The translations under genes were made by a program, and so were the position numbers. A stretch of 64,000 nucleotides of DNA from NCBI GenBank assembly GCA_965267345.1, contig OZ253947.1:573043-637042 (forward strand). The letters are read 5' to 3'. Origin of the DNA: Minisyncoccota bacterium. Lineage in GTDB: Bacteria > Patescibacteriota > Minisyncoccia > Phycocordibacterales > UBA2100. Shown here one piece after another: positions 27,612 to 49,706 of this stretch; within the stretch, counting starts at the first letter, position 1, and each line of letters opens with the position of its first letter. The notes beneath the pieces are model-generated. The model searched no databases. It was not told where the DNA came from and worked only from the letters and a program-made list of their open reading frames with translations.

Positions 27612-27644
27612 AAATACACTCAATCGCTCAAATGGCGTCATTTG
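27612..27644. terminator. hairpin AATCGCTCAAATG-gcgt-CATTTGAGCGATT 3' of polA
   Basis: 13-bp perfect stem. A related degenerate copy of the 19-mer lies at 29..47, 3' of glyA. Confidence 0.55.
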
Positions 27645-27650
27645 AGCGAT

Positions 27651-30047
27651 TTAGGCAGTGGTGACCTTCTCCATTTCACCCCAGTTTTTGCCGCGCGATA
27701 CATCAACATCAAGCGGTACGCCTTTGCGCTGCTCGTCTGGCAATACCTCCTGCATGTACGAGCGGAGTGTCGGCGTGAGCGCAGCGACATGATCAGTGTG
27801 CACTTCGTAAATGAGCTCGTCGTGTACCTGCAGCACGAGCCGTGCGTGGTCGCGCAGTCCTGCTGCTGCAATGTGTTCGTCAATGCGAATCATGGCGAGT
27901 TTAATGATGTCGGCCGACGTACCCTGAATGGGAGCGTTAATTGCCATGCGCTCTGCTGCGGCGCGAATGTGCGGCAAGTGTGACGTAATGCCGTCAAAGT
28001 AGCGGCGGCGCCCGAAAAGCGTCTGCGTGTAGCCTAGGCGCGACGCGTCGGCTTTCGTGTGGTCGATCCACTGTGCGAGCCCCGTGTACGTGGCAAAGTA
28101 TGCGTCATAAAACGCGCGAGCCTCTTTTTGTGTTGTATCGGCACCAAGGTTTCCCCGCAACGCATTCACGCCCATGCCGTAGAGAATACCGAAGTTAATC
28201 ACTTTGGCTTTGCGGCGCATTTCTTTATCGACGGCATCAACTGAGACACCGAAGACATCAGCGGCAACTGCTGTGTGAATGTCGTGCCCCTGCTCAAATG
28301 CATGCATGAGTTTGGCATCTTCTGAGAGAATCGCGGCAATGCGCAACTCAATTTGCGAGTAGTCGAGTGCGACGAGCTCATGCCGCTTCTCAGCAACGAA
28401 CGCATTGCGGATGCGCCGCCCGTAGGCCGACTTAATTGGGATGTTTTGCAAGTTGGGATGCTGCGACGCCATACGCCCCGTCGTCGTGCCTGCCTGCAGG
28501 AATTCGGCATGCAGCCGTCCGTCGTCCCCCACAGCCGCCGGTAGCGCATCAACGTACGTCGATACCAATTTTTGCAGCTCACGATACGCGAGGATGTGTT
28601 CAATAATCGGATGTTCACCGCGAAGTTTCTCGAGCTCCGACTCGCGTGTACTGCGCTGCCCCGTGGCGGTTTTCTTTTGATTTTTCGGCTTCAGCTCCAA
28701 TGTATCAAAGAGCACTTCAGCAAGCTGTTTTGGTGAGTTGATATTAAATGTCGTACCCGCTGAAGCAAACACCTGCGTTTCGATGCGCTCCAGTTCGGTG
28801 TGGTACTCCTTTGAGAGTTTCGTGAGGTACGCGGTATCAAGTCCAACACCCGTCTCGTTCATACGCGCAACAACCGGAATCAGCGGCTCCTCAATCTCGG
28901 TGAAGACACGCTCGAGGTTGCGCTCTTTGAGTGTCGTGAACACCGCCGCACGCGCGTCGGCAAATCGTTTCGTGCCCGCAAACTGTAAAATATCGTCTTT
29001 GGTTGGCGAGGTGATGTCCGATCGAATGAGCCACAGCGCAATGGCGGTGCGTCGCACTTCCTCGTCACTCACGTCCTCTTCCTCTTCGTGCTGCTCGCTC
29101 ACTGCGTCCGTTTCAATGTTGAGCAGGCGCTTCAGTCGGTCGTGCAGCGTGCGAAACTCGAGATCGGCAAAGAGTGTCAGCACTGCATCAGGATCAATCG
29201 TCTCACGCCACACTGATTCGGGGATGGCGTAGTCGACAGGCGCGTCACGTCGCACGGTTGCGAGCATTTTTGAGAAAAAGGCCTCATCTTTCCCCTCTTG
29301 CAGCAAGCCAATGATACGTTTCTTGATCCCCTTCTCCTCAAATACTGCCGCGCCCTCAGATGCCTCAAGTGCCGCGTACATATCGTCCATGCCACCGAAT
29401 TGGGTGATGAGCTCTGTGGCACTCTTTTCGCCAATACCGCGAATGCCGGGTATGTTGTCTGACGGATCGCCGCACAGCCCCTTGTAGTCAGGCAGCAGCT
29501 CAGGCCCGAATCCAAATCGCGCCCGTACAGCGTCCTCGTCATAGAGCACGGTGTCCTGAATGCCTTTACGCAGCGTGTACACGAGCACGCGATCGTCATC
29601 TACCAACTGCAGTGTGTCCATGTCGCCTGAGGCAATAATGATGCGGAGCTGCTTCGTGTCTTTCAGCTGCTCCACAATCGTTGCCAGTACGTCGTCGGCT
29701 TCGAACCCGCGCGCATCGTACAGCGGCACACCAAATGCTTCGAAAACTGTGCGGCTCTTCTCAAGCTGGGTAACCAATTCGGGCTCGGATTTCTTTCGGC
29801 CGTCTTTATATTCGGCAAATACTTCGTGACGGTGCGTCGGCTCGGGCAGGTCGTAGCAGGCGGCAATGTAGTCAGGGTTGAGCTCCTGAATAATTTTCAT
29901 GAGCATCGTCGAGAGTCCAAAAAGCGCGCCGGTGGGTTCGCCCTTGCTCGAGGAGAAGTCAGGCAGTGCGTGGTAGGCACGATGAATGATGGCGTGTGCA
30001 TCAATGAGCACGAGTGTCCGTGGATCGTCCTTTTTCTTAGCCATCAT
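27651..30047 (-). CDS. polA: DNA polymerase I
   Basis: N-terminal 5'-3' exonuclease/FEN region (..LVLIDAHAIIHRAYHA..) and C-terminal family A polymerase motifs (..DYSQIELRIAA.., ..RRKAKVINFGILYG.., ..QVHDELIYE..). Start trimmed to MMAKKK. Confidence 0.9.
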   Translation of the reverse strand: MMAKKKDDPRTLVLIDAHAIIHRAYHALPDFSSSKGEPTGALFGLSTMLMKIIQELNPDYIAACYDLPEPTHRHEVFAEYKDGRKKSEPELVTQLEKSRTVFEAFGVPLYDARGFEADDVLATIVEQLKDTKQLRIIIASGDMDTLQLVDDDRVLVYTLRKGIQDTVLYDEDAVRARFGFGPELLPDYKGLCGDPSDNIPGIRGIGEKSATELITQFGGMDDMYAALEASEGAAVFEEKGIKKRIIGLLQEGKDEAFFSKMLATVRRDAPVDYAIPESVWRETIDPDAVLTLFADLEFRTLHDRLKRLLNIETDAVSEQHEEEEDVSDEEVRRTAIALWLIRSDITSPTKDDILQFAGTKRFADARAAVFTTLKERNLERVFTEIEEPLIPVVARMNETGVGLDTAYLTKLSKEYHTELERIETQVFASAGTTFNINSPKQLAEVLFDTLELKPKNQKKTATGQRSTRESELEKLRGEHPIIEHILAYRELQKLVSTYVDALPAAVGDDGRLHAEFLQAGTTTGRMASQHPNLQNIPIKSAYGRRIRNAFVAEKRHELVALDYSQIELRIAAILSEDAKLMHAFEQGHDIHTAVAADVFGVSVDAVDKEMRRKAKVINFGILYGMGVNALRGNLGADTTQKEARAFYDAYFATYTGLAQWIDHTKADASRLGYTQTLFGRRRYFDGITSHLPHIRAAAERMAINAPIQGTSADIIKLAMIRIDEHIAAAGLRDHARLVLQVHDELIYEVHTDHVAALTPTLRSYMQEVLPDEQRKGVPLDVDVSRGKNWGEMEKVTTA

Positions 30048-32366: not shown

Positions 32367-32504
32367 GTGCGTGGTCCCTGCGCACCACGCTCCCCACCCT
32401 GTCAAGTTTCAAAACGCGTCGTGCATGCTATGGTGGAGATGGCTACCGGTGTAGCAAAAACACCGAGAGCTGGTCTTCGGTGTTCTTTGTATTCGGGAAT
32501 ACTA

Positions 32505-32699
32505 TTCTCTAAACGACACCCCTCACTTCAAACGCCAGTATGGCGCTTGAAGCCAGCACAGATACTGTGCATTGGCGTTTCAAGTGAGGGGCCAAGAACG
32601 CATCTGAGGATAGGCGCAGCGTAAACCACGTCGTCCTCGAAGCGACTTGTGTTGGTGTGGACCTCAATCGTTTAGAGAATACTGTTCCCGAAATCGAAT
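32505..32699. repeat. 195-bp nested inverted-repeat element (MITE-like, or structured RNA)
   Basis: A 22-bp outer IR (GGGAATACTATTCTCTAAACGA / TCGTTTAGAGAATACTGTTCCC, 2 mismatches) encloses an 18-bp IR (CCCCTCACTTCAAACGCC / GGCGTTTCAAGTGAGGGG, 1 mismatch) and a 6-bp hairpin. It sits in the 500-bp pilB-ruvB spacer. Confidence 0.55.
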
Positions 32700-32745: not shown

Positions 32746-33741
32746 ATGTCAATAGATTCAAAGCCTCAACAAAGCGACGATGAGAACGTATCGTTTCTCG
32801 ATAAAACACTCCGTCCCAGCAAGTGGGACGAGTATATTGGTCAATCGCGCGTGAAAGAGAACCTGTTCATCCTCCTCTCAGCAGCTCGCGAGCGCGAACA
32901 ACCACCGGAACACATCCTCTTTTACGGCCCGCCGGGACTCGGCAAGACAACACTCGCCCACCTCATCGCCCACGAGTCGGGCAGTCAGATTCGCATCACG
33001 TCAGGACCGGCCATTGAGCGTGTGGGAGACCTTGCCTCAATTCTCACGAACCTCGGCGAACGCGACATTCTCTTCATCGACGAGATCCACCGCTTAAACA
33101 AAAACATCGAAGAGGTCCTCTACCCTGCTATGGAGTCGGGCGTCCTCGACATAATTATCGGCAAAGGACCATCGGCGCGCACCATTCAGCTCGAGCTCCC
33201 GCCGTTTACCCTCATTGCCGCCACTACGCAGGTGTCGGGCATCTCGAGCCCGCTGCGGAGTCGTTTCTCGGGCGGCACCTTCCGCCTCGACTACTACACC
33301 GATGATGAGATTCGCGACATTCTCCGCCGCTCCGCCGCCATTTTAGGCGTCACGATAGAAGACGAGGCGCTCGAGGAAGTGGCAAAGCGCAGCCGCTTCA
33401 CGCCGCGTACCGCAAACTTCCTGCTGAAACGCTGCCGCGACTTCGCCCAAGTGCATAAAGGCAAACTCGACAAAGCAACCGTCAACAAAGCACTCGAGCT
33501 GCTCGATATTGACGAGCTCGGGCTCAATCATAGCGATCGCGAGATCCTGCGTACCATTATCGAAAAATTCAACGGCGGCCCTGTCGGACTCAAGACACTC
33601 GCCGCAGCGGTTTCAGAAGAACAGAGCACGATCGAAGACGTACACGAGCCGTACCTCATGCAACTCGGCCTGCTCGAGCGCACACCACGCGGTCGCGTGG
33701 CGACGCCACGCGCCTACGATCACCTTGGTCTGAGAGTTTAG
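32746..33741 (+). CDS. ruvB: Holliday junction DNA helicase RuvB
   Basis: AAA+ domain with [11 protein letters not shown] Walker A, sensor motifs and a C-terminal winged helix. Start trimmed to MSIDSKPQQ. Confidence 0.9.
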
Positions 33742-35606
33742 TTTGCGTCCTCGCCCTCCTCTTCATCGAGAACGTTTCGTGAAGTAAAGAAGTCGGCAAA
33801 GGCGCCAACTGCCTTGCGGGTCGTTTCTGTCACTGAGTCGATAAACCACGAGACAAAGTTCACGCCGTCAGTGCCTTCGTAGCGTGGTGTCTCTTCCGCG
33901 TCGCGAGCAGCAAGTGCGCCGAGTGTTGAGGTAGCACGCGTTGCCGGTGCCGGACTGGGGCGCACCCATCCGTCATAGACAGCAATGAAGTGTTCGATGG
34001 CTGTTTCGGGCAGCACGCGCTTGTCGAGCTCGGCAACAAAGGTGTCGCGCTCCACTTCTTTTGCCCGCTCCTCGCGACGTTCCTGACATGAAGCACTCGT
34101 CTCATTGACCCGACAGAAGACGGCATTTTTTGCGCGCTTCCCTTCTTCTTCAGCAACGCGCAGTGCGCGAATCGCCTCGTCTTCTACAATGAGATCCTGC
34201 AGACGGCCGAACGACTCGTTCTCGGTGTCGACACTCGTGCTTGGACCGCCAACGCGTGAGAGCGTGTAGGCAAACTGTTCTACGCGCGCGGCATTCTGTG
34301 GTACATCCATCGCCGCATCACTGGCAATCTCCTGAATTGAGCGATAGGTGCTGTTGGGTAGTGCCCCAACAGTGATGTCGCGCTGTGCTCGTGGCGCATC
34401 ATTGTAGACAACGACTGGCTGTGTGTAGGTTTGTCCTTGTGGTGTCTGACGATAGTTTGCATCAGCTGCATCACTGCCGTATAACCCGTCATTTACGCGC
34501 TGCGTTGCAATTGAGCGCACAAAGTTTCGCAATGGATCACCAACAAACTCCTGCACCAGACTACGTGCATTTCCTACTTGTTGGTTTGTCCTTAGACTTT
34601 CAAAAGCCGAATTCTGCTGCACTGAACTTCCTTGTGTTTGCAACGCAATCGCTCCTCCTTGCACTGGATTTACTGTAACACCAGATGAAACAGGAGTGAC
34701 CGGAAATCCTGAGTTTGAGTTTCGTACCAGACTTGGATTTACTGCAACAGATGTTCCGGTTACACCATGCACTTCGGTGGTTGGAACGGAGTTGGTCGAT
34801 GGAGCAGCTGAAGTATTCGAGCTGGTCACCTGAGTTGGAACGGAGTTGGTCGATGGAGGGTTTGCACTAGTAGTTTGTGTAACTTGAGTTTCGAAAGCTG
34901 CACTCCCTCCAGTTACCGACCCTCCTCCTGAGCCACCTTGTGGAGCAGGTGTATTTAGAGCGATACCCCCAGTGCCAACGCTACCTGTAGGGCACGGAAG
35001 GTCCCCACCAGTAGCTAAAATGGCCGAGGCAACGACGTAATATTTAAGGCGCCCCCAGAAGGTGTCGCTATCGATTCCAAATTTATCCTCAAGAAAGACG
35101 CAAGGCTCGAGTATGCGAGTACCATCATCCTCAAACAGTGGGTCATTTTTATATCGAATATCCTCCCTATTGTTGCCACATATATACGCCGTTTTGCCAT
35201 CATTTGTTTGCCATTGAATTTTATCTTCTGCCCCACAACCTTCATTCAAATCACTTATTGAACACTCGTACACGCACTGGTCAACACTGACTGTTTGCAC
35301 GCATGCATATTCATAGTTTGGATACCTCTCGCGAAATGGTCGGCACGCAGCCTCGCACTTAGCCTCACTGTCTTTTGCAGAACAGGTCTCGCTTACCTCA
35401 AACGGAAGAGCAGGGCTATAGTTAAGCTCTCCTTGACTACTACCTCCTAAATTCCGAAGACGATCGGAAGCGCTCGACGCTTGAGCAACTTGTGCCTCCG
35501 TCGCCCTTTCATGCAAGGCGACCGAAGAATTTGAAGTGAGGAAGATCCCCCCTATAATCAGGGTAATAACGCCCAGAAGCACAGAAACCGAATAGATTTT
35601 GTCCAT
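33738..35606 (-). CDS. large anchored/secreted hypothetical protein (Cys-rich N-terminal region, Ser/Thr-rich repeat region)
   Basis: N-terminal TM helix after [12 protein letters not shown]. Contains tandem 24-bp repeats (GTTGGAACGGAGTTGGTCGATGGAG x2 at about 34780-34862). Confidence 0.5.
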
Positions 35607-35842
35607 ACAGTCTATGGTACCGCACCTGCCAGTAGTTAGTTTAGTAGCCTGCCGCGCATTGGGGATATGCATTGACACATTCTGAGTTTAATGTAATATT
35701 ACGACAATACATTAAAATACACTTGTCAATACCCAAGGGTGCCGAGACATGTGTCCCCAACATTGTTTTCTGGTGGCTACATGTCTCCGCACCCCAAAGC
35801 CACACTGGTGATGGGCGGCGGAGAAAGCTCACGGAGGCTTGC

Positions 35843-36127
35843 ATGAAGATTGCAAATATCCTAGCGGTCGCGGTGGTAATGACAGCCTTCGCGATCCCTG
35901 CGACGCAAGCAGGAGAAGTCCAAGAGTCTCTCGAGGACGACTTCGGTGAGTACGGGTGGTGGAAGTACAATCTCTGCCCCTCGGCCTCCGAAGAGATGCG
36001 CGTGGTGTACGTGGTCACTAATACTGGGACAAAAGATCCCTCTGGGATGCCCGAGTACAAAGTGACCCGCCTCATCCCCGAATGCAGTCCTACTGGGCAG
36101 AATCAGGTTTCTTCGATTGCGCAGTAA
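35843..36127 (+). CDS. small secreted Cys-containing protein A (hypothetical)
   Basis: 94 aa with Sec signal peptide MKIANILAVAVVMTAFAIPATQA. GGAGG Shine-Dalgarno 5 nt upstream. A TTGACA-16-TAATAT promoter lies at 35672-35699. Confidence 0.55.
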   Translation: MKIANILAVAVVMTAFAIPATQAGEVQESLEDDFGEYGWWKYNLCPSASEEMRVVYVVTNTGTKDPSGMPEYKVTRLIPECSPTGQNQVSSIAQ

Positions 36128-36132
36128 CGCAG

Positions 36133-36176
36133 AGACGGGAGGACTGGATTTCGATCCGGCCCTCCCGTCTTTTTTA
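36133..36176 (+). terminator. intrinsic terminator H1: AGACGGGAGG-18 nt loop-CCTCCCGTCT-TTTTTT
   Basis: 10-bp stem plus T6, 3' of gene A. The loop contains a GGAT-TTCG-ATCC mini-hairpin. Confidence 0.7.
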
Positions 36177-36378
36177 TATTACTAAAAAAGAAACTGGCGC
36201 GGTAAGATGGTTGAGATTGACTTCTTGAGTGTATATAGTTCATTATGAGCATAAAAAAACAAAATAGTGCACGCGTCAATGGTTGATGCGCGGATGTGTG
36301 AATACCTACGTGTCTACTCACCCTCGCATTAACGCAAACCAGCGCCGCCGCGAGGGGCGGCCAAATGGAGGCCTCACA

Positions 36379-36678
36379 ATGAAGGGGTTCATCCTTGTTC
36401 TTCTGTGCATCGCGGCGGCCTTCGCGTCGCCCCTATCCACTCCGGCACATGCTGAGGAGAAGGAAGCGGCGGTGTTTTCGTACACCATTGAGGTCATCGG
36501 AGAAAGGATCGTCCTCGTCGTCGCTAAGACTGGCGAAGTGGCGGCATCCTGTCCGATTACCCAGAAGCTGGTTCCCTACAACCTCACCTGTAGCAAACTT
36601 GGAAAGGGCAACGAATGCAAAGACCCGTCCTTCAGGGTGGGCTGTGCTCCGAAAGAGCTGCACGTGCCGCAGAGGTAA
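36379..36678 (+). CDS. small secreted Cys-containing protein B (hypothetical; weak similarity to A)
   Basis: 99 aa with signal peptide MKGFILVLLCIAAAFASPLSTPAHA. GGAGG Shine-Dalgarno. Followed by a terminator at about 36690-36720. Confidence 0.55.
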   Translation: MKGFILVLLCIAAAFASPLSTPAHAEEKEAAVFSYTIEVIGERIVLVVAKTGEVAASCPITQKLVPYNLTCSKLGKGNECKDPSFRVGCAPKELHVPQR

Positions 36679-36748
36679 CAACAGCCGGCGGCGCGAAGGA
36701 AATCTGGTTTCCTTCGCGCCGTTCTATTTTATTTTTGTATCCCCGCTT

Positions 36749-37501
36749 CTACCTTTTACGCGCCACAATAATCAGACGAGGCGATTCTGGAGCGTACGCT
36801 TCTCCTTCAAAGTTTCCGAATACCTTTTCCACCGAACAGCCATACCGATCTAGCATGTCGTGCAGCTCTGGGAAAAAGTAGTGTCTCCAGGAACCCGTTT
36901 TTTCTCTTGGTTGTCCGCTTTTTACGTATCGATACGTAAGTGTATGCTGCATAGTGACTGGATCAAGCATTTGTTCAGCCTCAAACGAATCGTAGACATC
37001 CACCTGCCGCCACTGTGTGTTTGAAAACGCCACCACATCGCGCACGGGATTACGCACATCGATAACAACTTTTCCGCCCTCACGAACGCTGGTGCATATA
37101 TTTGCCACGACACGTTCGTTTTCTGCGTTCGTTCGAAAATATCCGAGTGACGAAAACAGATTAAGCGCTGCATCAAACGCACCCTCTTTTGCATACTCGC
37201 GCATGTCCGCCGTTTCGTACGAAAGGCGTTTTTGCACGTCACTGGGTAGAAGCTCTTTGGAATGATTCGCTCTTTGCAGCATACTCTCAGACGCATCAAT
37301 TCCGTGCACCATATACCCAGCCTTGGCAAGGAGCTCGTCGTGACGCCCATACCCACACGGCATATCTAAAATATGCTGCGTTGTAGCATCAAACACGTGA
37401 TCTATTAAAAAAGAAACTTGTTTCTGGGTGCGTTCGGCAGTTAAATTCCCCTCATAGAGAGAAAAATAATCTTCATCAAAATACTCTTCAGTCCAGTGCA
37501 T
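36749..37501 (-). CDS. class I SAM-dependent methyltransferase
   Basis: Rossmann SAM motif ..ILDMPCGYGRH.. and ..GGKVVIDV.. Confidence 0.75.
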   Translation of the reverse strand: MHWTEEYFDEDYFSLYEGNLTAERTQKQVSFLIDHVFDATTQHILDMPCGYGRHDELLAKAGYMVHGIDASESMLQRANHSKELLPSDVQKRLSYETADMREYAKEGAFDAALNLFSSLGYFRTNAENERVVANICTSVREGGKVVIDVRNPVRDVVAFSNTQWRQVDVYDSFEAEQMLDPVTMQHTLTYRYVKSGQPREKTGSWRHYFFPELHDMLDRYGCSVEKVFGNFEGEAYAPESPRLIIVARKR

Positions 37502-37658
37502 ACATCTACATAATGGAGCATATCATGCTGTGGGTTATGACTCACCTTTTCGTTCTTGCCCCTCAGTGTTTATAGTGTTGACACAGTCAACGGTGAGCGT
37601 ATCGTGATACTACCTACCCCACTGGTGGGATGGGAGACGTACAACAGAGGAGGTTTGC

Positions 37659-38189
37659 ATGAAAACTGCAAGCATTCTAATGGTCACTGTTGTCGCCTTA
37701 TGTACCTCGCTCTTTGAAACGTCCGCAGCGTACTCGCAGACTACCGAAAGGCTCGAGGATCTGAATACAATGCCTCGGTATGTGCAGGAGGCGTTCGCCT
37801 TCCTGCGCAAAAACGACCACGAGTCGAACGAGTGTCGCAGTTTCGAGTTGCACACATGGCCCCGCAACGTGCAAAACACACCTCATGGCGCCATGTACGA
37901 CCGCGCTTTTCGGCTCTATGCGACGTACGACGGGGTGCAGAAAGATGTGCCCAACATACCGAACCCCCTTCGCTTCGCTGCAGCAAGGGCACACCGCCAA
38001 GCAGTCGAGGAGGGTCTCTGTTCTCGGTATCGGCTCGTGCGCATGTATGTTTCAGGGTCGAGCTTCACACTCTCGTGCGATGAAACTCCCCCTGAAGTGA
38101 TCCAAAGCTTCAACACGTGGGAACCGCGGGATGACGAAGACGAGGCCGCCGAAACGCCCATGTGGACGGATCGGCTTCCTACACAGTGA
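37659..38189 (+). CDS. secreted Cys-containing protein C (hypothetical)
   Basis: 176 aa with signal peptide MKTASILMVTVVALCTSLFETSAA. Strong GAGGAGG Shine-Dalgarno. Confidence 0.6.
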   Translation: MKTASILMVTVVALCTSLFETSAAYSQTTERLEDLNTMPRYVQEAFAFLRKNDHESNECRSFELHTWPRNVQNTPHGAMYDRAFRLYATYDGVQKDVPNIPNPLRFAAARAHRQAVEEGLCSRYRLVRMYVSGSSFTLSCDETPPEVIQSFNTWEPRDDEDEAAETPMWTDRLPTQ

Positions 38190-38275
38190 CCAGCAACGGC
38201 GTGGAGAGATACATTCTCTCCACGCTGTTCTAGTGTTTAATGAATGTCTATTTCTTCGCTTGCGCGGCAGCGCAG

Positions 38276-38313
38276 AGACGGGAGGGCCGGATCGAAATCC
38301 AGTCCTCCCGTCT
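38276..38313 (-). terminator. hairpin H2: same 10-bp stem as H1 with the loop inverted, abutting the MTase-2 stop
   Basis: AGACGGGAGG / CCTCCCGTCT stem. The loop is the reverse complement of the H1 loop. No U-tract on either strand. Confidence 0.5.
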
Positions 38314-38314
38314 C

Positions 38315-38911
38315 CTACTGATTCACAAATACAACCTGCCGCACTTCGTTCACCGCCTTTGCAACCTTCGCTTCACATCGTACTTTCTCATCAAAAAGAA
38401 CTTCCCATCCTTCATATAAAGCATCAAGGTTCGAATCGTCGTCATAGAACCCACCTTCGTCAACTTTAGTTTTGTAGAAGTCGCTTTGTGTGGTGAATAT
38501 CCGATGAATATGAAAGCCTCCCTCGTCCGTCATGCGCTTTGCTTTTGCAACAAGCTCCTTGAATACGCTCTTCTCAAAATGATGCGCCACGAGTGGAAAG
38601 AATATGAGTGTATAGCTGTGAGAAAATACAAACGATCGTATATCCTGATAATGGGTAGTGATATTTTCCCCCTCGTCGTCAATAGCGCCAAAAGCAGCGG
38701 TGGAGAAATCAACCGCATCAACAACATAACCTGCATCGCGCAAAAATAAACTGGTGATCCCCTCCCCTGCACCAATATCGAGTGCGCGTCCACGAGGTAA
38801 TTCGTACTGTTCAACAATGTCTCTAAGAAAATCGCGGCTTCCTGCTCTAAAAACATTTGGATTCTTGCTGTAGAGAGAATCATAAAAATTTTTTAAGTTC
38901 ATTTTTTTCAT
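38315..38911 (-). CDS. class I SAM-dependent methyltransferase (TehB/Methyltransf_23-like)
   Basis: ..ALDIGAGEGITSLFLRDAGYVVDAVDFS.. SAM-binding motif. Start set at MKKMNLKNFY; the track ORF extends into non-coding-looking sequence. Confidence 0.7.
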   Translation of the reverse strand: MKKMNLKNFYDSLYSKNPNVFRAGSRDFLRDIVEQYELPRGRALDIGAGEGITSLFLRDAGYVVDAVDFSTAAFGAIDDEGENITTHYQDIRSFVFSHSYTLIFFPLVAHHFEKSVFKELVAKAKRMTDEGGFHIHRIFTTQSDFYKTKVDEGGFYDDDSNLDALYEGWEVLFDEKVRCEAKVAKAVNEVRQVVFVNQ

Positions 38912-39002
38912 AAATGAATTTCGTTGACCACGATATAAGTGTGCATTACCATGCACAGTACGGTCAAGTTGTGGCCGCAACGCGCAATTTGGAGGAAATT
39001 CT

Positions 39003-39422
39003 ATGAGCGCAAGCAGTTTGGCATCATTGCCAAATATCGACCTCGGCCGTGTTATGCCGCGGGTCGCGAAGGAAAATCCGGACTGGAACACCGAGCGCCT
39101 TCGTGTCGCGGAATGTGAGTATCTGCGTTTCCTGCAGCTCTGCAAAACGTTCCCCGAGCGGAAGATCTCGGCACCTCCGGATGTCGACGAAGTGTGGCAT
39201 GCGCACATGCTCGACAGCGTGCATTACATGCGCGACTGCAACAACTACTTCGGCTTCTATCTCCATCACGACCCCTGCATCGGCGAGACCGATCTGGAAA
39301 ACGCACGTGAGACGCTCGTGCTTTACGAAAACACCTATGGCACTACGGTGCCAGCGGCATGGGCTGGTCTCATGACGTGTGCAAATCCGGGACAGGGATG
39401 CGGGAGTATCCCTGTCCAGTAA
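39003..39422 (+). CDS. DUF1399-like (glycine-rich-domain-protein-like) cytoplasmic protein
   Basis: 139 aa with a ..DEVWHAHMLDS.. histidine motif. GGAGG Shine-Dalgarno. Confidence 0.5.
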   Translation: MSASSLASLPNIDLGRVMPRVAKENPDWNTERLRVAECEYLRFLQLCKTFPERKISAPPDVDEVWHAHMLDSVHYMRDCNNYFGFYLHHDPCIGETDLENARETLVLYENTYGTTVPAAWAGLMTCANPGQGCGSIPVQ

Positions 39423-39445
39423 AAAAGAGCCGCGACTCAGACTTA

Positions 39446-39473
39446 CCCCGCCACCAGACGTGGCGGGGTTTTT
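39446..39473. terminator. bidirectional terminator CCCCGCCAC-caga-GTGGCGGGG-TTTTT
   Basis: Lies between the convergent DUF1399 gene and the anti-sigma gene. Confidence 0.7.
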
Positions 39474-39474
39474 C

Positions 39475-40587
39475 TTATTGCACCAGCAGCGTACGCACCA
39501 CAAACACTTCGTGCAGCGCTGCCTCGAGCTGGCCTTGAGCCCAGAGTATATTCCCCTGTGCACGTGCCTGTTGCACCGCGGCAAAACGGCCTTCGAGTGA
39601 ATCGATACGCGCTTGAGTCTCCGCCGACACTGTCGATGCAGCTGCTACGTCCGCATACATACGCGCTCGCTCCTCTTCAAATAGTTTCAAAAGCTCCTGT
39701 ACCACCGCCTCGGTTTCAGGATCACTGCCGTATGACTCCACGGCCATGGATGTCGCCTGCTGTGTTGGTAGCGTCTCAGGCGCACGTAGTGCCATCATTT
39801 CAGGCTCGCCGCCTTCACGCATATCTGCTGCGTCTGTATCGGTGTCATCGCGCGGTGCGCTCATGAGTGCCATGGTCTGCACCTCCCCTTCTCCTGCTGA
39901 CTCCTCTTTTGCAACCACTGAGCCGCCGACACCGGTGCCATGGCCATCACCGGCAGCAGGTGCCATCATCGCCATGGTTGCTGCCTCGGGCGCTGCAGGT
40001 GCATCGAGTGTATCAGCAGCGTAGGCAACGGTTGGTGTCGCTGCGTCGCGCGTTCGTGCCGCAAAGGCAATGCGCAGCGCAGCTGCTTTTGCCGGCGCTG
40101 CTGTCTCAATTGCCGCAACGCGCTGTTGGAAGTAGTCACCCGCCTCTGCAATTGTGTTCAGAGCAATAACTTCGCGTTCACCCGTGAACGCCTCGCGCGT
40201 TGCGAGCGCTGAGGCTTCAGTGATACGTCGGTGGACACGCTCAAGCGCCCACTGCGCACGTGCCTCGTCGTTAAACAGGAATTCTCCCTGAATATCTTCA
40301 GCGGCAATTTTTACGCCGTAGAGCGTGTCACCGGGAAGGGCATCACGAGCAGCGAACGTTGCACTGCCGCTCCCCACCACAACGAGCATTAAGACAGCGA
40401 GTGTCGCAACCAGTCGATACTCGAGCAGCATGTGCAGGTACGCGCCGCGCATGCGGCGCGCTGTTTTCGGTCGCACCGGTGTGTGCTCCATATACGCATT
40501 GATTTTGTCGCGCATGCGCTCTTTCTCAGCCGTACTGAGCTGTACCGTTTTGCTGACGTCGTTAATATGTCGTTCGAATATACTCAT
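39475..40587 (-). CDS. putative anti-sigma factor (single-pass membrane protein with large Ala-rich extracytoplasmic domain)
   Basis: Immediately downstream of, and overlapping (ATGA), the ECF sigma gene. TM helix LVATLAVLMLVVV. Confidence 0.55.
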   Translation of the reverse strand: MSIFERHINDVSKTVQLSTAEKERMRDKINAYMEHTPVRPKTARRMRGAYLHMLLEYRLVATLAVLMLVVVGSGSATFAARDALPGDTLYGVKIAAEDIQGEFLFNDEARAQWALERVHRRITEASALATREAFTGEREVIALNTIAEAGDYFQQRVAAIETAAPAKAAALRIAFAARTRDAATPTVAYAADTLDAPAAPEAATMAMMAPAAGDGHGTGVGGSVVAKEESAGEGEVQTMALMSAPRDDTDTDAADMREGGEPEMMALRAPETLPTQQATSMAVESYGSDPETEAVVQELLKLFEEERARMYADVAAASTVSAETQARIDSLEGRFAAVQQARAQGNILWAQGQLEAALHEVFVVRTLLVQ

Positions 40588-41129
40588 ATAGTGTGTTCCT
40601 CATGTGCCGCAAGCGTTTGGCGCAATTTCTTCATACCGCGATTAATCCGCACTGATACGGCATTTTCAGTCTCACCCAACACGTCGGCAATCTCTTTCGG
40701 GCGCAGTTCGTCAATGTAGCGCATGACCACCACGCTGCGGTACTGATCGGGCAGTGCCCCGAGTGCTGCCTGTAAATCGTCTGACTGAAAGCGAATATTG
40801 GCTTCGTCTTCCGCACTGTCGCGGTCGCCGCTGCGCAGCTCATCAAATGAGCCTTCTTGCACACCATCATCGGCATCGAGCAGCGCGTCGAGGGACGTGC
40901 TCTTTTTTTTGCGGTACTCGTCAATGATCAGGTTGTTGAGAATACGAAACAGAAATGCGCGCTCGTTGCGTATTTCTTCTCCGCGTGCAACTTTGTCCCA
41001 TGCTTTCATAAATGCATCTTGGACCAACTCAATGGCGCGCTCGCGATTCGACACGCGGAAAACGCAGTGCCGAAACAGTGCATCTGCATGCGCTTCGTAG
41101 ACATGTGCGAAGGCCTGCTGGGTATCCAT
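40584..41129 (-). CDS. ECF (sigma-70 group 4) RNA polymerase sigma factor
   Basis: Region 2 (..FRHCVFRVSNRERAIELVQDAFMKAW..) and region 4 HTH (..LRPKEIADVLGETENAVSVRINRGMKKLR..). Confidence 0.85.
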   Translation of the reverse strand: MDTQQAFAHVYEAHADALFRHCVFRVSNRERAIELVQDAFMKAWDKVARGEEIRNERAFLFRILNNLIIDEYRKKKSTSLDALLDADDGVQEGSFDELRSGDRDSAEDEANIRFQSDDLQAALGALPDQYRSVVVMRYIDELRPKEIADVLGETENAVSVRINRGMKKLRQTLAAHEEHTI

Positions 41130-41248
41130 TGGTCTATGATATCAAAGACGCACGATATCCGCTCTTCTTTCAGAAGGATGGGTTACAGAAAAAGCACGGC
41201 ATGGTCGGTTGTTTTGGGGTGGGTGCCTAGTGTAAAATCACGACCACT

Positions 41249-41782
41249 ATGGCAGGACACAATAAATGGTCAAAAATTAAACATAAAAAGGCAGCGACCG
41301 ACGCGGCAAAGAGCAAAGTGTTCGGAAAAATGGCACGTTTGATCGCCGCTGAGTCAAAGAAGACAAACGGTGATACCTCAGCACCAAGTCTGCGCGCAGC
41401 GATTGATAAAGCACGCGCCGAAAACATGCCAAAAGACAACATCGACCGCGCCGTTGCCAAGGGTACTTCGGCAGACGCCGCGGCCATGGAGCCGATTATC
41501 TACGAAATGTACGGCCCATCGGGTACGGCGGTGCTGATTGATATCCTCACCGACAATCGCAACCGCACTGCTGCTGAAATTCGTCACCTGCTCTCAAAAA
41601 AGGGCTACGAGCTTGCGACGCCCGGCAGCGCTGCATGGGCCTTCACCAAGAATCCTGACGGCACGTACGACGCACACACAACGGTTGAAATTACCGAAGA
41701 GGACGGCGAGAAGCTCGATGCACTGCTCGAAACACTTGAAGATCACGACGACGTACAGGACGTCTACACCAACGCAGTCTAG
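41249..41782 (+). CDS. yebC: YebC/PmpR-family probable transcriptional regulator (short form)
   Basis: MAGHNKWSKIKHKKA.. and ..DVQDVYTNA.. termini. At 177 aa it lacks part of the usual middle domain. Confidence 0.8.
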   Translation: MAGHNKWSKIKHKKAATDAAKSKVFGKMARLIAAESKKTNGDTSAPSLRAAIDKARAENMPKDNIDRAVAKGTSADAAAMEPIIYEMYGPSGTAVLIDILTDNRNRTAAEIRHLLSKKGYELATPGSAAWAFTKNPDGTYDAHTTVEITEEDGEKLDALLETLEDHDDVQDVYTNAV

Positions 41783-42279: not shown

Positions 42280-42446
42280 TCAGCGGCTGTCACCACACTA
42301 TCCCCGTACAGAGCATACGCTCTCCACAAGGTGTCCCCATATAGCTTCTGTTTATCCCCATGTTATGCAGTATTGAAAAGTGTTGAGAGTTTGGTACAAC
42401 TCAGCGTGAGGAGCATTCCTCACTTATTATCTAAGGTATGTGTACT

Positions 42447-42668
42447 ATGGTTTTTGATGACCACAACGACCACGACGAGGAGAACGAGGAGGAGTTTGAT
42501 GCGGACGCATCACTCGACGATGATGATCTGTTCGACGATGAGTCAGACGACGAAGATACTGACGACGACGGAGATGACGATGATGACGAAGAGTCAGACG
42601 ACGAAGACGAAGAAGAGGACAACGCACCGCCTGAGGTGCCGTTTAACGACGAAGAGCAGACGCTCTAG
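42447..42668 (+). CDS. extremely acidic 73-aa protein (about 70% Asp/Glu)
   Basis: MVFDDHNDHDEENEEEFDADASLDDDDLFDDESDDEDTDDDGDDDDDEESDDEDEEEDNAPPEVPFNDEEQTL, followed directly by a canonical terminator. Confidence 0.5.
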   Translation: MVFDDHNDHDEENEEEFDADASLDDDDLFDDESDDEDTDDDGDDDDDEESDDEDEEEDNAPPEVPFNDEEQTL

Positions 42669-46435: not shown

Positions 46436-46437
46436 TG

Positions 46438-46698
46438 TTAGTAAATAGCGCTGATGCAGTACGGATCCCCCAGATCTTTTTGCACACGTTCGAGAATATC
46501 GCTCTGGTGAAGGTGTATTTCGCTTTTAATCGTTGATGATGTTGAGAGGCGTACGGTTTTGTTACGTATATGCACCTGATCCTCAGGTATATCTATTTCG
46601 AGCACGTCACGAACTGCGGTGATAAACGCCTCGCGCACAACACGCTCAGGTGCTTTAAGATTTGTGTACCGCTGGAGAAAACCGCTGACTAAACGCAT
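46438..46698 (-). CDS. dciA: DUF721/DciA-like protein
   Basis: 86 aa directly downstream of dnaN, the characteristic DUF721 position. Confidence 0.55.
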   Translation of the reverse strand: MRLVSGFLQRYTNLKAPERVVREAFITAVRDVLEIDIPEDQVHIRNKTVRLSTSSTIKSEIHLHQSDILERVQKDLGDPYCISAIY

Positions 46699-46701
46699 AT
46701 A

Positions 46702-47814: not shown

Positions 47815-48060
47815 AGTTTTTTATTTTTTTCTTACGAACACCCTTATTAGTGCTGTGTGTATGTGCAGAAACACGTAATCCTCTGTGTTTCTGCACTCTC
47901 ACCACTAGAACTCGTGTGTGCTATCTGTGAACAAAGAAGGAACAGAACTGGGTATAACAACAGTGTATACCATTTGGGTGCATGAGGTGGGTATAACTCC
48001 TATGGTAGTACCCATGATTATCACCATCACACCCCAACACTTATACACAGAGAACTGAAC
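47815..48060. other. oriC part 1: AT-rich unwinding element plus DnaA-box-like 9-mers between dnaA and dnaN
   Basis: The T-rich stretch TTTTTATTTTTTCTTA sits next to the dnaN start. TTATACACA at 48041-48049 is a 1-mismatch DnaA box. Confidence 0.65.
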
Positions 48061-49425: not shown

Positions 49426-49706
49426 AGTTTCCGTATTATATACAAGCTCTGTGGATAAGTAAAAAATGCCTCAAAATGCACTTCTATGTGGATAGTGTGG
49501 GGATAAGTAATGACGTGTACCCTACCTCACGTTTATCGCAGGTGGTGCTTACGGACAAAACTCTTAACGAGAGAGCCGTTGATACACCTGTTGCGGCGTT
49601 TATCATGACTCCGCCGACAAAAAGCAGCTTTTACATGTATGTGTATAGTAGTATCTCTATCCACAGAGTATTGCTTTTTGTCTGTTTTTGCGTAGTATGT
49701 GTCCCC
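49426..49706. other. oriC part 2: DnaA-box cluster upstream of dnaA
   Basis: Perfect TGTGGATAA at about 49450. Near-consensus boxes TGTGGATAG and TGGGGATAA at about 49487-49505. CTATCCACA at about 49666. Confidence 0.7.

What the first reader, a model, noticed from the sequence alone, without database searches (positions are those of the whole stretch)
35672..39473. Accessory island of three small secreted Cys proteins, two SAM methyltransferases and a DUF1399 protein
Three plus-strand genes (A 35843-36127, B 36379-36678, C 37659-38189) each begin MK..IL.., carry classic Sec signal peptides, have strong GGAGG Shine-Dalgarno sites and encode small Cys-containing proteins. Proteins A and B share short motifs (YNLCPS / YNLTCS; VVYVVTNTG / IVLVVAKTG). 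These contrast with the mostly leaderless or SD-poor housekeeping genes nearby. B and C are each convergent with a minus-strand class I SAM methyltransferase, and a DUF1399-like gene follows. The region has visibly AT-richer intergenic stretches and is bracketed by two copies of the same terminator element (H1, H2). It sits beside an ECF sigma/anti-sigma pair. This could be an effector, bacteriocin-like or surface-protein cassette. Its function is unknown.
Basis: partly seen in the sequence, partly recalled or inferred. Interest (0 to 1): 0.55.

Follow-up and report, generated by a model that had tools for sequence, protein, structure and literature searches.

The report
Lineage-specific secreted-protein island in CPR bacterium
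A 7.5-kb patch wedged between two normally adjacent DNA-repair genes of an ultra-small (Paceibacteria/CPR) bacterium carries three exported proteins seen in no other sequenced organism plus a few enzymes; it is a genuine accessory patch, but a mosaic of separate genes rather than one machine, and its function is unproven.

Summary
The genes are real and at the stated coordinates. A (35843-36127), B (36379-36678) and C (37659-38189) each have a Sec-type signal peptide, a GGAGG Shine-Dalgarno site, a sigma-70-like promoter and a hairpin terminator. All three are ORFans in 5.8 billion proteins. The accessory status is confirmed and enlarged. In 76 related Paceibacteria loci RuvB is followed almost directly by YebC or RuvC (median gap 120 bp, maximum 4.6 kb). 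Here 7.5 kb (33738-41129) lies between them, and none of its nine genes recurs in the 80 related loci. It is not one cassette. A and B are not demonstrably paralogous. No ECF-type promoter precedes A, B or C. The low GC belongs to the two methyltransferase genes and a large surface-protein gene, not to the intergenic DNA. H1 and H2 bracket only B-MT1-C. New points: backbone genes are SD-less and often leaderless, and the only credible strong SDs in 64 kb are on A, B, C and the GRDP-like gene. A and C share both ends of their units but not their middles. The TehB-like methyltransferase and the GRDP-like gene form a divergent pair that recurs on one metagenome contig. The function of the exported proteins is inferred, not shown.

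The parts
32749..33741 (+). RuvB, conserved left flank of the insertion
   Evidence: 68-77% identical to RuvB in 80 Paceibacteria loci. In relatives it is followed by YebC or RuvC after a median of 120 bp.
33738..35606 (-). 622-aa membrane-anchored or secreted protein with a Cys-rich N-terminal part, a Ser/Thr/Pro-rich middle and a 54-nt internal tandem repeat. It is the first gene of the insertion.
   Evidence: ORF. No Pfam, NCBIfam, PHROG or PADLOC family. GC3 0.45 and atypical codon usage, p<0.0003. Repeat D6. No relative in the 80 loci. A -10-like TACCAT lies 7 nt before the ATG.
35672..35700 (+). sigma-70-like promoter of A (TTGACA-16-TAATAT). It implies a leader of about 135 nt.
   Evidence: 10 of 12 consensus positions. 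The leader fold is not unusually stable, z -2.0.
35843..36127 (+). Gene A: 94-aa pre-protein with a Sec signal peptide; mature part about 71 aa, 2 Cys, net charge -6; ORFan
   Evidence: GGAGG SD with 5-nt spacer.
36108..36170 (+). H1: a 63-nt repeat copy made of the last 20 nt of A, a small hairpin and a 39-nt hairpin, followed by a U-run. It is the intrinsic terminator of A.
   Evidence: -33.5 kcal/mol, z -4.8.
36211..36239 (+). sigma-70-like promoter of B (TTGAGA-17-TATAGT). It implies a leader of about 133 nt.
   Evidence: 10 of 12 consensus positions. Leader fold z -0.95.
36379..36678 (+). Gene B: 99-aa pre-protein with a Sec signal peptide; mature part about 74 aa, 4 Cys; ORFan
36687..36723 (.). 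17-bp hairpin between the convergent genes B and MT1, with a T-run on the + strand
36749..37501 (-). MT1: 250-aa class I SAM methyltransferase of small-molecule type (related to glycine N-methyltransferase and sugar N,N-dimethyltransferase). Low GC, no SD.
   Evidence: Pfam Methyltransf_25/11. Best solved relative 9ri2_A at E 1e-24, then GNMT and 3bxo. Below the cut-offs of all NCBIfam equivalogs. GC3 0.45 and atypical codon usage, p<0.0003.
37578..37605 (+). sigma-70-like promoter of C (TTGACA-16-TATCGT)
   Evidence: 10 of 12 consensus positions.
37659..38189 (+). Gene C: 176-aa pre-protein with a Sec signal peptide; mature part about 152 aa, 3 Cys, acidic tail; ORFan
38195..38229 (+). Hairpin terminator of C
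38251..38314 (.). H2: the second copy of the 63-nt repeat. Its left flank is 22/26 identical to H1 in direct orientation. Its 39-nt core is the perfect reverse complement of the H1 core. It has no U-run and abuts the MT2 stop codon.
38315..38902 (-). MT2: TehB-like class I SAM methyltransferase of about 195 aa (or 198 aa if it starts at 38911). Very low GC (0.43), no SD.
   Evidence: Pfam TehB 46.8 bits against a cut-off of 20.4. TehB structures 2xva and 4dq0 at E 1e-10. 43% identical homologue next to a GRDP homologue in L081.
38924..38952 (+). Promoter of the GRDP-like gene (TTGACC-17-TACCAT). It overlaps the 5' region of the divergent MT2 gene, and its -35 box GTTGACCAC is conserved in L081.
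39003..39422 (+). GRDP-like (DUF1399) protein, 139 aa, cytoplasmic. It has the His/Asp motif D62, W65-H66-x-H68-x-L70-D71, H89-x-P91 and a Cys/Gly tail LMTCANPGQGCGS. It has a GGAGG SD.
   Evidence: Pfam PF07173. Invariant columns. 63% and 48% identical relatives in metagenome contigs. Composition typical of the genome.
39445..39469 (+). Intrinsic terminator of the GRDP-like gene
39475..40587 (-). Membrane anti-sigma-like protein with a DUF5667 domain. Its start overlaps the stop of the sigma gene.
   Evidence: Pfam DUF5667, E 1e-8. Composition typical of the genome.
40584..41129 (-). ECF-type sigma factor, the last gene of the insertion
   Evidence: Sigma70_r2 and r4_2. TIGR02937 at 88 bits against a cut-off of 42.9. 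No relative in the 80 loci.
41147..41172 (-). Candidate ECF (SigW-like) promoter TGAAAG-N16-CGTC upstream of the sigma gene. It is the only intergenic exact match in the window.
   Evidence: The motif count in the window is not above chance, so this is a lead only.
41249..41782 (+). YebC, conserved right flank of the insertion

Best explanation
The interval is the middle of a 7.5-kb lineage-specific insertion (33738-41129). It lies at the otherwise tight RuvB|YebC-RuvC junction of a roughly 0.64-Mb Paceibacteria (Candidate Phyla Radiation) genome, about 10 kb from dnaA and the likely replication origin. In relatives the same junction holds other cargo, including toxin-antitoxin-like genes, transporter genes and other secreted proteins. 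It is therefore a recurrent variable spot.

The content is a mosaic of independently expressed units, not an operon.
- A, B and C are three genome-unique pre-proteins. Each is transcribed alone from a sigma-70-type promoter and translated from a leadered mRNA with a canonical SD. Each is exported by the Sec pathway and cut by signal peptidase I. This puts small acidic or Cys-bearing proteins on or outside the cell.
- The most likely role, by inference only, is in the fast-evolving envelope or host-contact repertoire of an epibiotic CPR cell. The neighbouring 622-aa surface protein would belong to the same repertoire.
- A and C probably descend from one duplicated unit. Their SD and signal-peptide start and their 3' tail plus hairpin are shared, but the mature parts have been replaced or have diverged beyond recognition.
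- MT1 and MT2 are unrelated cytoplasmic small-molecule-type SAM methyltransferases with foreign-looking composition.
- MT2 (TehB-like) and the His/Cys-rich GRDP-like protein are a divergently transcribed two-gene module. The module exists independently of A, B and C.

Shown: the gene models, the expression signals, the uniqueness of A, B and C, the insertion, the mosaic composition and the conserved MT2-GRDP pair.
Inferred: export, the surface or host-interaction role, the duplication history, and any functional coupling of MT2 with the GRDP-like protein.
For: - Insertion: 80 related loci keep the order PolA, PilB, RuvB, YebC, RuvC, TyrRS, PBP1. The gap from RuvB to the next backbone gene has a median of 120 bp, an interquartile range of 48-528 bp and a maximum of 4553 bp in 76 loci. 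In the window it is 7508 bp. None of the nine island proteins has a tblastn hit in those loci, even at E 0.1. The larger gaps in relatives hold unrelated genes.
- Uniqueness: A, B and C hit only themselves in 5.8 billion proteins. C also hits only itself by full phmmer against 1.84 billion representatives. There are no Pfam, NCBIfam or PADLOC families; the only PHROG match is a weak one to A's signal peptide (E 0.004, residues 9-34).
- Real genes: signal-peptide features, GC3 of 0.65-0.70, SDs, promoters and terminators.
- Separate units: each has its own promoter and terminator, and the composition is mosaic.
- SD contrast: of all SD-plus-start combinations in 64 kb, only A, B, C and the GRDP-like gene are credible full-length ATG starts, with at most two doubtful others. 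Backbone genes in relatives have 0 of 253 five-nt SDs. Many starts in the window have TAnnnT 6 nt upstream.
- Shared ends of A and C: 34/45 nt at the start. This is the highest of 1431 start-region pairs, z 5.2, while B is at background. The 63-nt 3' repeat is.
- MT2-GRDP pair: the same divergent arrangement occurs on metagenome contig L081, with 43% and 63% identity and a conserved -35 box.
Against: - No experiment or homologue links A, B or C to any function.
- Single-sequence structure models are of low confidence (pLDDT 56 and 63) and give no specific fold.
- Export is judged by inspection, not by a trained predictor.
- The rest of the genome could not be retrieved. Whether SD-led genes or the H hairpin are common elsewhere in it is unknown.
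- Relatives share only 68-77% RuvB identity. The age of the insertion and its presence in closer strains are therefore unknown.
- The GRDP-like, anti-sigma and sigma genes have native-like composition, so parts of the insertion may be old residents.
- The MT2-GRDP pairing rests on two genomes. A third GRDP relative, on a 1.6-kb contig, has no MT2 upstream.
Confidence: 0.6

Rival explanations
1. Modified-peptide (RiPP-like or bufferin-like) cassette. In this reading A, B or C are precursors that the neighbouring methyltransferases and the His-rich GRDP-like protein modify before Sec export.
For: - Bufferin precursors are 80-120-aa proteins with four Cys and a Sec signal peptide, and their genes lie near an ECF sigma/anti-sigma pair (PMC11626156). 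B is 99 aa with 4 Cys in the mature part and lies 3 kb from such a pair.
- In other bacteria GRDP-like genes sit beside tiny peptides and, in one case, a methyltransferase. On Halomonas and P. savastanoi plasmids the neighbour is a 42-44-aa peptide ending GGGHCQGGG[SG]W. In Stanieria the order is GRDP, a 43-aa ORF, then a methyltransferase.
- MT1's best NCBIfam match is the daptide RiPP methyltransferase.
Against: - No MNIO/DUF692, DUF2063 or DUF2282 match occurs in any island protein.
- The daptide match scores 51 bits against a cut-off of 175.
- Every gene has its own promoter and terminator, and the methyltransferases are on the opposite strand.
- MT1 and MT2 resemble small-molecule enzymes.
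- The MT2-GRDP pair occurs in L081 with no A-, B- or C-like gene.
- The Stanieria methyltransferase is unrelated to MT2.
Confidence: 0.07
2. ECF regulon. In this reading the adjacent sigma/anti-sigma pair senses an envelope signal and switches on A, B, C and the large surface protein.
For: - The pair lies inside the same insertion.
- A SigW-like TGAAAG-N16-CGTC lies upstream of the sigma gene. This is consistent with autoregulation.
Against: - No GGAAC/TGAAAC-N16-CGT type motif lies upstream of A, B, C, MT1, MT2, the GRDP-like gene or the 622-aa gene, even with one mismatch.
- The upstream regions share no 8-mer.
- Each of A, B and C has a 10/12 sigma-70-like promoter.
- The sigma and anti-sigma genes have native composition, unlike A, B, C, the methyltransferases and the 622-aa gene.
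Confidence: 0.1
3. Mobile-element remnant or recombination cassette. In this reading B-MT1-C (36171-38250) was inserted, or can be inverted or excised, by recombination at the H1 and H2 repeats. These form a 63-nt direct repeat with a perfectly inverted 39-nt core.
For: - The repeats are far beyond chance.
- The core is 39/39 identical in inverted orientation while the flank is 22/26 identical. This suggests ongoing exchange or selection.
- MT1 has foreign-looking composition.
Against: - No integrase, transposase, recombinase or phage family is found in the island.
- No tRNA gene lies at the borders; the tRNAs are elsewhere.
- The hairpin is absent from viral contigs and from all fetched loci.
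- H1 is fully explained as the terminator of A.
- Inversion would change nothing obvious, because each gene carries its own promoter.
Confidence: 0.12
4. A, B and C are not real genes, only chance ORFs in spacer DNA.
For: They have no homologue anywhere. Their codon choice is mildly atypical, p 0.004-0.017.
Against: - Each combines a strong SD at the correct spacing, an ATG, a textbook signal peptide, high GC3, an upstream promoter and a downstream hairpin.
- Such SDs are otherwise nearly absent from the window.
- The deposited proteins match these models exactly.
Confidence: 0.04

Closest known systems
Integrase-less regions of genome plasticity (flexible islets between conserved core genes)
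   Same: The insertion lies between tightly syntenic core genes. Relatives carry different cargo at the same junction. Composition is atypical for part of the content, and ORFans and surface proteins are enriched.
   Different: It is small (7.5 kb). It has no integrase, tRNA or att site. Part of it (GRDP-like, anti-sigma and sigma genes) is compositionally native. It lies about 10 kb from the origin region.
Bufferins: Sec-signal-peptide, Cys-containing RiPP precursors near SigF/NrsF (PMC11626156)
   Same: Small pre-proteins of 94-99 aa with a Sec signal peptide and 2-4 Cys, close to an ECF sigma/anti-sigma pair.
   Different: There is no MNIO (DUF692) or DUF2063 partner and no DUF2282 signature. 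The genes are monocistronic, and no ECF promoter was found.
TehB tellurite/selenite SAM methyltransferase
   Same: MT2 matches the Pfam TehB model above its cut-off. It aligns nearly full length to the 199-aa TehB structures.
   Different: It scores far below the NCBIfam equivalog cut-offs, 56 against 218 bits. It is paired with a GRDP-like gene, which is not known for tehAB. No TehA is present.
GRDP / DUF1399 (PF07173), studied only in plants (for example AtGRDP2, PMC4299439)
   Same: It shares the conserved core D-x2-W-H-x-H-x-L-D ... F-G ... H-x-P.
   Different: It is a short stand-alone bacterial protein without the plant glycine-rich region. The CPR-type subfamily has a C-terminal LMTCAxPGxGCGS tail. 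No bacterial function has been reported in the searched literature.
Multigene surface-protein families with a conserved 5' region and signal peptide and variable mature parts (for example Mycoplasma vsp/vsa/vlp; from general knowledge, not tested here)
   Same: A and C share the SD-to-signal-peptide start and a 3' tail, but have unrelated mature parts.
   Different: There are only two members. The 5' module is 76% identical over 45 nt. No lipobox, recombinase or evidence of switching was found.
REP-like extragenic palindromes, and hairpin-loop 'flip-flop' inversions known from plastid DNA (from general knowledge)
   Same: The element is an imperfect palindrome just after stop codons. It is found in both orientations, with the loop inverted between identical stems.
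   Different: Only two copies can be seen. The copy number in the rest of the genome is unknown, and no RAYT-type gene is in the window.

Membership tests
Sec/signal-peptidase-I secreted pre-proteins (A, B, C) | Positively charged N-terminus, a hydrophobic core of 10-15 residues, and small residues at -3 and -1 of the cleavage site | tested here: met
   All three start MK. The maximum 11-residue hydropathy is 2.7-3.2. The cleavage motifs are TQA|G or AFA|I (A), AHA|E (B) and SAA|Y (C). This was judged by inspection; no trained predictor was available.
Bacterial lipoproteins | A lipobox, L-[AS]-[GA]-C, at the end of the signal peptide | tested here: not met
   None of the three signal peptides contains a lipobox (sequences).
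   BLASTP gives E 0.012, driven by the signal peptides. The mature parts give a Smith-Waterman score of 32 against shuffles of 22.8+-4.3, p 0.04. The two motif pairs lie in opposite order. No profiles are possible because neither protein has homologues.
Bufferin-type RiPP cluster | A DUF2282 or BUF_6/12Cys precursor together with an MNIO (DUF692) enzyme and a DUF2063 partner | tested here: not met
   No such Pfam hit occurs for any of the nine island proteins at E<=0.1. The family definition is from PMC11626156.
Daptide RiPP methyltransferase (MT1) | NCBIfam NF041820 score of at least 175 bits | tested here: not met
   51.4 bits.
Class I SAM-dependent methyltransferases (MT1, MT2) | A Rossmann-fold methyltransferase domain with the glycine-rich motif I | tested here: met
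   Methyltransf_25 scores 46.8 and 35.9 bits against a cut-off of 27. The motifs are LDMPCGYG and LDIGAGEG.
TehB family (MT2) | Pfam PF03848 above its gathering score. For the equivalog, NCBIfam NF008405 of at least 218 bits. | tested here: inconclusive
   Pfam 46.8 bits against 20.4 is met. The NCBIfam equivalog at 56.5 bits against 218 is not met. MT2 is therefore TehB-like, not an orthologue.
GRDP-like / DUF1399 (PF07173) | A Pfam score above the gathering threshold and the conserved WHxHxLD ... HxP core | tested here: met
   25.3 bits against 22.7, covering only profile positions 94-143. All 16 invariant columns of a 7-member alignment are present.
ECF sigma regulon including A, B and C | An ECF-type -35/-10 (GGAAC/TGAAAC-N16-CGT) upstream of the target genes, shared with the sigma gene's own promoter | tested here: not met
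   The only exact intergenic match is upstream of the sigma gene itself. None is found upstream of A, B or C, even with one mismatch.
Classical genomic island or integrative element | Absence from relatives, atypical composition, and an integrase with flanking att repeats or a tRNA gene | tested here: inconclusive
   Absence from relatives is met. Atypical composition is met for 6 of 9 genes. No integrase or tRNA gene is present. The only repeats (H1 and H2) are internal.
Intrinsic (Rho-independent) terminators (H1, H2) | A GC-rich hairpin followed directly by a U-run | tested here: inconclusive
   H1 has the hairpin plus UUUUUUAUAUU, so it meets the definition. H2 has no U-run on either strand, so it does not.
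REP- or MITE-like dispersed repeats (H1, H2) | Many copies across the genome in extragenic positions | not testable with these tools
   Two copies occur in 64 kb. The remaining roughly 580 kb of the genome could not be fetched.
Known RNA families in the leaders of A, B and C | An Rfam match, or an unusually stable fold | tested here: not met
   No Rfam hit lies in the leaders at E<=1. Fold z-scores are -2.0, -0.95 and +0.2.

The most novel reading that the evidence does not exclude
In a lineage whose core genes are translated without Shine-Dalgarno sites, and largely from leaderless mRNAs, the exported ORFans A, B and C and the GRDP-like gene form a separate class. They are leadered and SD-dependent, and they are concentrated in one variable islet. 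If that split is functional, the cell could switch its surface and secreted repertoire at the level of translation initiation mode, for example on host contact or under stress, independently of the housekeeping genes. The shared 5' and 3' ends of the A and C units would then mark a reusable 'expression slot' into which new exported proteins are recruited.
Probability: 0.12. Interest if true: 0.6.

Novelty: new member of a known kind. Interest (0 to 1): 0.35.

Why it matters
CPR/Patescibacteria are thought to live attached to host cells, and their surface and secreted proteins are prime candidates for host interaction. Nearly all of these proteins are uncharacterised. This locus gives a cleanly delimited example of how such genes sit in the genome. 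It is an integrase-less variable spot between conserved repair genes, near the origin, and it holds three exported proteins with no relatives among 5.8 billion sequences.

Two by-products are directly testable:
- the sharp split between SD-less, leaderless core genes and SD-led island genes;
- a conserved TehB-like methyltransferase / GRDP-like gene pair, which offers a first handle on the bacterial role of DUF1399.

None of this overturns current ideas. It is a well-documented instance, not a new principle.

Tried and rejected
- Family searches for A, B and C in Pfam, NCBIfam, PHROGs and PADLOC gave nothing usable. The two weak matches were VMAP-M0 to C (E 0.025, below its cut-off) and a 48-position PHROG to A's signal peptide.
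- Homologue searches for A, B and C returned only the query itself. Profile-profile tests of paralogy were therefore impossible.
- Exact look-ups failed to locate the source genome. It was also not among the 80 genome loci, whose best RuvB identity is 77%.
- The ECF promoter hypothesis was rejected.
- Riboswitch or structured-leader ideas for the long 5' UTRs were rejected.
- A phage origin was rejected: there are no PHROG structural or integrase hits, and the hairpin is absent from viral contigs.
- An integron attC reading of H1 and H2 was considered and dropped. There is no integrase, no R/L box consensus, and the repeats enclose a multi-gene segment with genes on both strands.
- The idea that the low-GC patch at 46-50 kb is a second island was rejected. 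It is the dnaN-dnaA origin region.
- The literature search found no bacterial study of DUF1399 and no paper on leaderless translation in Patescibacteria within the held library.

Full report
**What is in the sequence**

The three plus-strand ORFs exist exactly as described: A 35843-36127 (94 aa), B 36379-36678 (99 aa) and C 37659-38189 (176 aa). The public protein collection holds A, B and C with exactly these sequences, each as a singleton seen on one 644,490-bp contig.

Each protein starts MK and continues with a strongly hydrophobic stretch (11-residue hydropathy 2.7-3.2). Each ends its signal peptide with a signal-peptidase-I type motif: TQA|G, AHA|E and SAA|Y. None has a lipobox. The mature parts hold 2, 4 and 3 cysteines.

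The remaining genes are these:
- MT1 (36749-37501, minus strand) is a class I SAM methyltransferase.
- MT2 (38315-38902, minus strand) is also a class I SAM methyltransferase, and it matches the TehB model.
- 39003-39422 matches GRDP-like/DUF1399 just above the Pfam threshold.
- 39475-40587 is a DUF5667 anti-sigma-like protein.
- 40584-41129 is an ECF sigma factor.

MT1 and MT2 share only the SAM-binding motif.

A scan of one genome per species with RuvB returned 80 Paceibacteria (Parcubacteria/CPR) loci at 68-77% identity. The source genome itself was not among them.

tblastn of the window's proteins against these loci shows a conserved backbone: PolA, PilB, RuvB, YebC, RuvC, TyrRS (minus strand) and PBP1. 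In 76 loci the distance from RuvB to the next backbone gene has a median of 120 bp, an interquartile range of 48-528 bp and a maximum of 4553 bp. In the window it is 7508 bp.

The inserted DNA runs from 33738, where it overlaps the RuvB stop codon, to 41129. It holds nine genes: a 622-aa membrane-anchored Cys- and Ser/Thr-rich protein, A, B, MT1, C, MT2, the GRDP-like gene, the anti-sigma gene and the sigma gene. None has a tblastn hit in any of the 80 loci, even at E 0.1.

Where relatives have more than 1 kb at this junction, the cargo is unrelated. It includes toxin-antitoxin-like genes, transporter genes and other signal-peptide proteins. The junction is therefore a recurrent variable spot. 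No integrase, transposase or phage protein was found in the island, and no tRNA gene lies at its borders. The dnaN-dnaA / rnpA-yidC origin region lies only 6-10 kb to the right.

**Composition is mosaic**

The GC dip at 35-39 kb (0.47-0.51 against about 0.54-0.55) is real. It comes from the genes, not the spacers.
- MT1 has GC 0.47, MT2 has GC 0.43, and the 622-aa gene has GC3 of 0.45.
- Against length-matched samples of backbone genes, the codon usage of these three is far outside the null (p<0.0003).
- A, B and C are mildly atypical (p 0.012, 0.004 and 0.017), although their GC3 is high (0.65-0.70).
- The GRDP-like, anti-sigma and sigma genes are indistinguishable from the backbone.
- Intergenic GC in the region (0.41-0.55) is not lower than elsewhere in the window (0.41-0.62).

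**Expression signals**

A, B and C each have a 10/12 sigma-70-like promoter, at 35672, 36211 and 37578. The GRDP-like gene has a 9/12 promoter at 38924. B, C and the GRDP-like gene each have their own hairpin-plus-T-run terminator, and A is followed by the H1 hairpin and U-run. These are monocistronic units. The leaders are about 135, 133, 47 and 44 nt long.

The leaders match no Rfam family and are not unusually structured. The A and B leaders are not alike.

- Among 58 ORFs, almost none has an SD at a credible start.
- An exhaustive list of SD-plus-start combinations in both strands leaves only A, B, C and the GRDP-like gene as clear full-length ATG starts. There are at most two doubtful others, at 58675 and 60293.
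- At least a dozen backbone genes have TAnnnT exactly 6 nt before the ATG. In all, 33 of 54 ORFs have such a box 4-10 nt upstream of a start-like codon, against 4.4% of internal start-like codons. This is the signature of leaderless mRNAs.
- In the 80 relatives, 0 of 253 backbone gene starts have a 5-nt SD.
- MT1 and MT2 lack an SD.

**What A, B and C are**

All three are ORFans. The word-indexed search of 5.8 billion proteins returns only the query. A full phmmer of C against 1.84 billion cluster representatives does the same. No curated family matches.

The proposed A/B paralogy is not supported.
- The BLASTP hit (E 0.012) is mostly signal peptide.
- The mature parts score no better than 4% of shuffles.
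- The two motif pairs are in opposite order. In A, YNLCPS at position 42 precedes VVYVVTNTG at 54. In B, IVLVVAKTG at 44 precedes YNLTCS at 67.

Unexpectedly, A and C share their translation-start module. From the SD through about codon 12, 34 of 45 nt are identical without gaps. The local score is 23 against 7.4+-1.3 for shuffles. The in-register identity of 35/57 is the highest of 1431 pairs of gene starts in the window (z 5.2). B, which also has an SD and a signal peptide, is at background against both. No similarity exists between the mature parts in any frame.

**H1 and H2**

The repeat is real: there are 2 matches to the stem pattern against 0 expected. It is 63 nt long.
- The 26-nt left part, which in H1 is the last 20 nt of gene A plus a small hairpin, is 22/26 identical in direct orientation.
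- The 39-nt main hairpin is a perfect reverse complement between the copies. The stems are the same and the loop is flipped.
- H1 carries a U-run and is the terminator of A.
- H2 has no U-run on either strand. It lies 62 nt beyond the C stop, after C's own terminator, and abuts the MT2 stop codon.
- The pair brackets B-MT1-C, not the island.

Together with the shared start module, both ends of the A unit have counterparts around C. The simplest reading is an old duplication of an A-like unit whose middle was replaced or diverged. This is inferred, not shown. The hairpin is absent from all fetched loci and from viral contigs. Its copy number in the rest of the genome could not be checked.

**The methyltransferases and the GRDP-like gene**

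MT1 aligns full length to an uncharacterised solved methyltransferase (9ri2, E 1e-24). It aligns more weakly to glycine N-methyltransferases and sugar N,N-dimethyltransferases. It is below every NCBIfam equivalog cut-off, including the daptide enzyme at 51 against 175 bits.

MT2 aligns to the 199-aa TehB structures (E 1e-10). It passes Pfam TehB but not the NCBIfam equivalogs.

A metagenome scan with the GRDP-like protein found a 63% identical relative on a 105-kb contig (L081) and a 48% identical one on a 1.6-kb contig. On L081 a 43% identical MT2 homologue lies divergently upstream, as in the window. The same GTTGACCAC -35 box sits in the shared spacer, and that GRDP gene also has an AAGGAGG SD. 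No A-, B-, C- or MT1-like gene is nearby.

MT2-GRDP is thus a small module in its own right. In both genomes MT2 is much poorer in GC than its host (0.43 against 0.54 here; 0.32 against 0.50 in L081), whereas the GRDP gene matches its host. This is unexplained.

An alignment of seven GRDP-like proteins gives the invariant core D62, W65, H66, H68, L70, D71, Y75, D78, F83, G84, H89 and P91. It also shows a C-terminal LMTCAxPGxGCGS tail specific to the three closest members. The His/Asp core suggests metal binding or catalysis. That, and any hand-off to a TehB-like enzyme, is speculation. The searched literature treats DUF1399 only in plants.

**ECF link**

The sigma gene has a SigW-like TGAAAG-N16-CGTC upstream. 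No comparable motif, even with one mismatch, precedes any other island gene, and the motif is not enriched in the window. The upstream regions share no 8-mer.

**Most likely explanation and rivals**

The best-supported account is a mosaic, integrase-less variable islet. It encodes independently expressed, Sec-exported, genome-unique proteins, most plausibly part of the fast-evolving envelope or host-contact repertoire of a CPR cell. It also holds two unrelated small-molecule methyltransferases, a conserved MT2-GRDP pair and an ECF pair. Confidence is 0.6. The anatomy is solid and the biological role is inferred.

The rivals are these:
- A RiPP- or bufferin-like modification cassette (0.07). 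The defining enzymes are absent, the transcription units are separate, and the pair occurs without precursors. The resemblance to bufferins (PMC11626156) is superficial.
- An ECF regulon (0.10). No shared promoter was found.
- A mobile or invertible B-MT1-C cassette bounded by H1 and H2 (0.12). No recombinase was found, and H1 is explained as a terminator.
- Spurious ORFs (0.04).

**Novelty and score**

This is a new instance of a known kind of thing: a lineage-specific flexible region rich in ORFan exported proteins. Three points go beyond the ordinary. The first is the clean partition between SD-less, leaderless core genes and SD-led island genes. The second is the shared ends of the A and C units. 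The third is the recurrent TehB-like/GRDP-like pair. None of them yet has a demonstrated function. Interest is 0.35.

Noticed in passing
whole window; for example 41806, 41129, 43923, 27597, 24623, 14768, 54504, 63086: Core genes lack Shine-Dalgarno sites. Many have a TAnnnT box ending exactly 6 nt before the ATG, which suggests that leaderless mRNAs dominate. In 80 related Paceibacteria loci, 0 of 253 backbone gene starts have a 5-nt SD. No paper on this was found in the held library.
   Followed up: partly
window 46436-51023: The low-GC patch (0.42-0.48) is the dnaN-dnaA / rnpA-yidC region, that is, the likely replication origin. The cumulative GC skew reaches its minimum near 52 kb. The island lies about 6-10 kb from it.
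   Followed up: partly
L083 2773-4754 (Halomonas plasmid NZ_CP130702.1); L085 2703-4691 (P. savastanoi plasmid NZ_CP078141.1): GRDP-like genes on these plasmids are preceded by 42-44-aa peptides ending GGGHCQGGG[SG]W and followed by a hypothetical protein of about 440 aa. This looks like an undescribed precursor-plus-enzyme (RiPP-like) arrangement. In Stanieria (L084) the order is GRDP, a 43-aa ORF, then a methyltransferase.
   Followed up: partly
window 38315-38902; L081 5324-5917: The TehB-like MT2 gene is far poorer in GC than its genome in both carriers (0.43 against 0.54; 0.32 against 0.50). The adjacent GRDP gene matches each host. This is unexplained.
   Followed up: no
window 30-62, 9194-9226, 27622-27654: A second repeated palindrome, AATCGCTCAAATGACGTCAAATGAGCG-like, has three copies at 73-88% identity (families D3 and I2). 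It may be another terminator or REP-like element.
   Followed up: no
window 42438-42668 (+), between RuvC and TyrRS: A 76-aa ORF made almost wholly of Asp/Glu, with 15-nt GAC/GAT/GAA repeats (family D1). It has no Pfam family. Relatives usually have only 0.3-0.5 kb here.
   Followed up: no
window 34780-34887: A 54-nt tandem duplication lies inside the 622-aa surface-protein gene, encoding repeated NSVPT-type Ser/Thr/Pro segments (family D6).
   Followed up: no
window 32492-32516 / 32668-32692: A 25-nt inverted repeat, 92% complementary with arms 151 nt apart, lies in the PilB-RuvB spacer just upstream of RuvB (pair I6).
   Followed up: no
window 51453-52349 (-): This gene weakly matches a type IV secretion system pilin, just below the Pfam cut-off (26.2 against 26.6 bits). 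It lies next to the origin region.
   Followed up: no
window 24623 (-) and 41806 (+): The start regions of the gene at 23127-24623 and of RuvC are 31/57 identical in register. This is the second-highest of 1431 pairs. It may reflect similar leaderless promoters.
   Followed up: no
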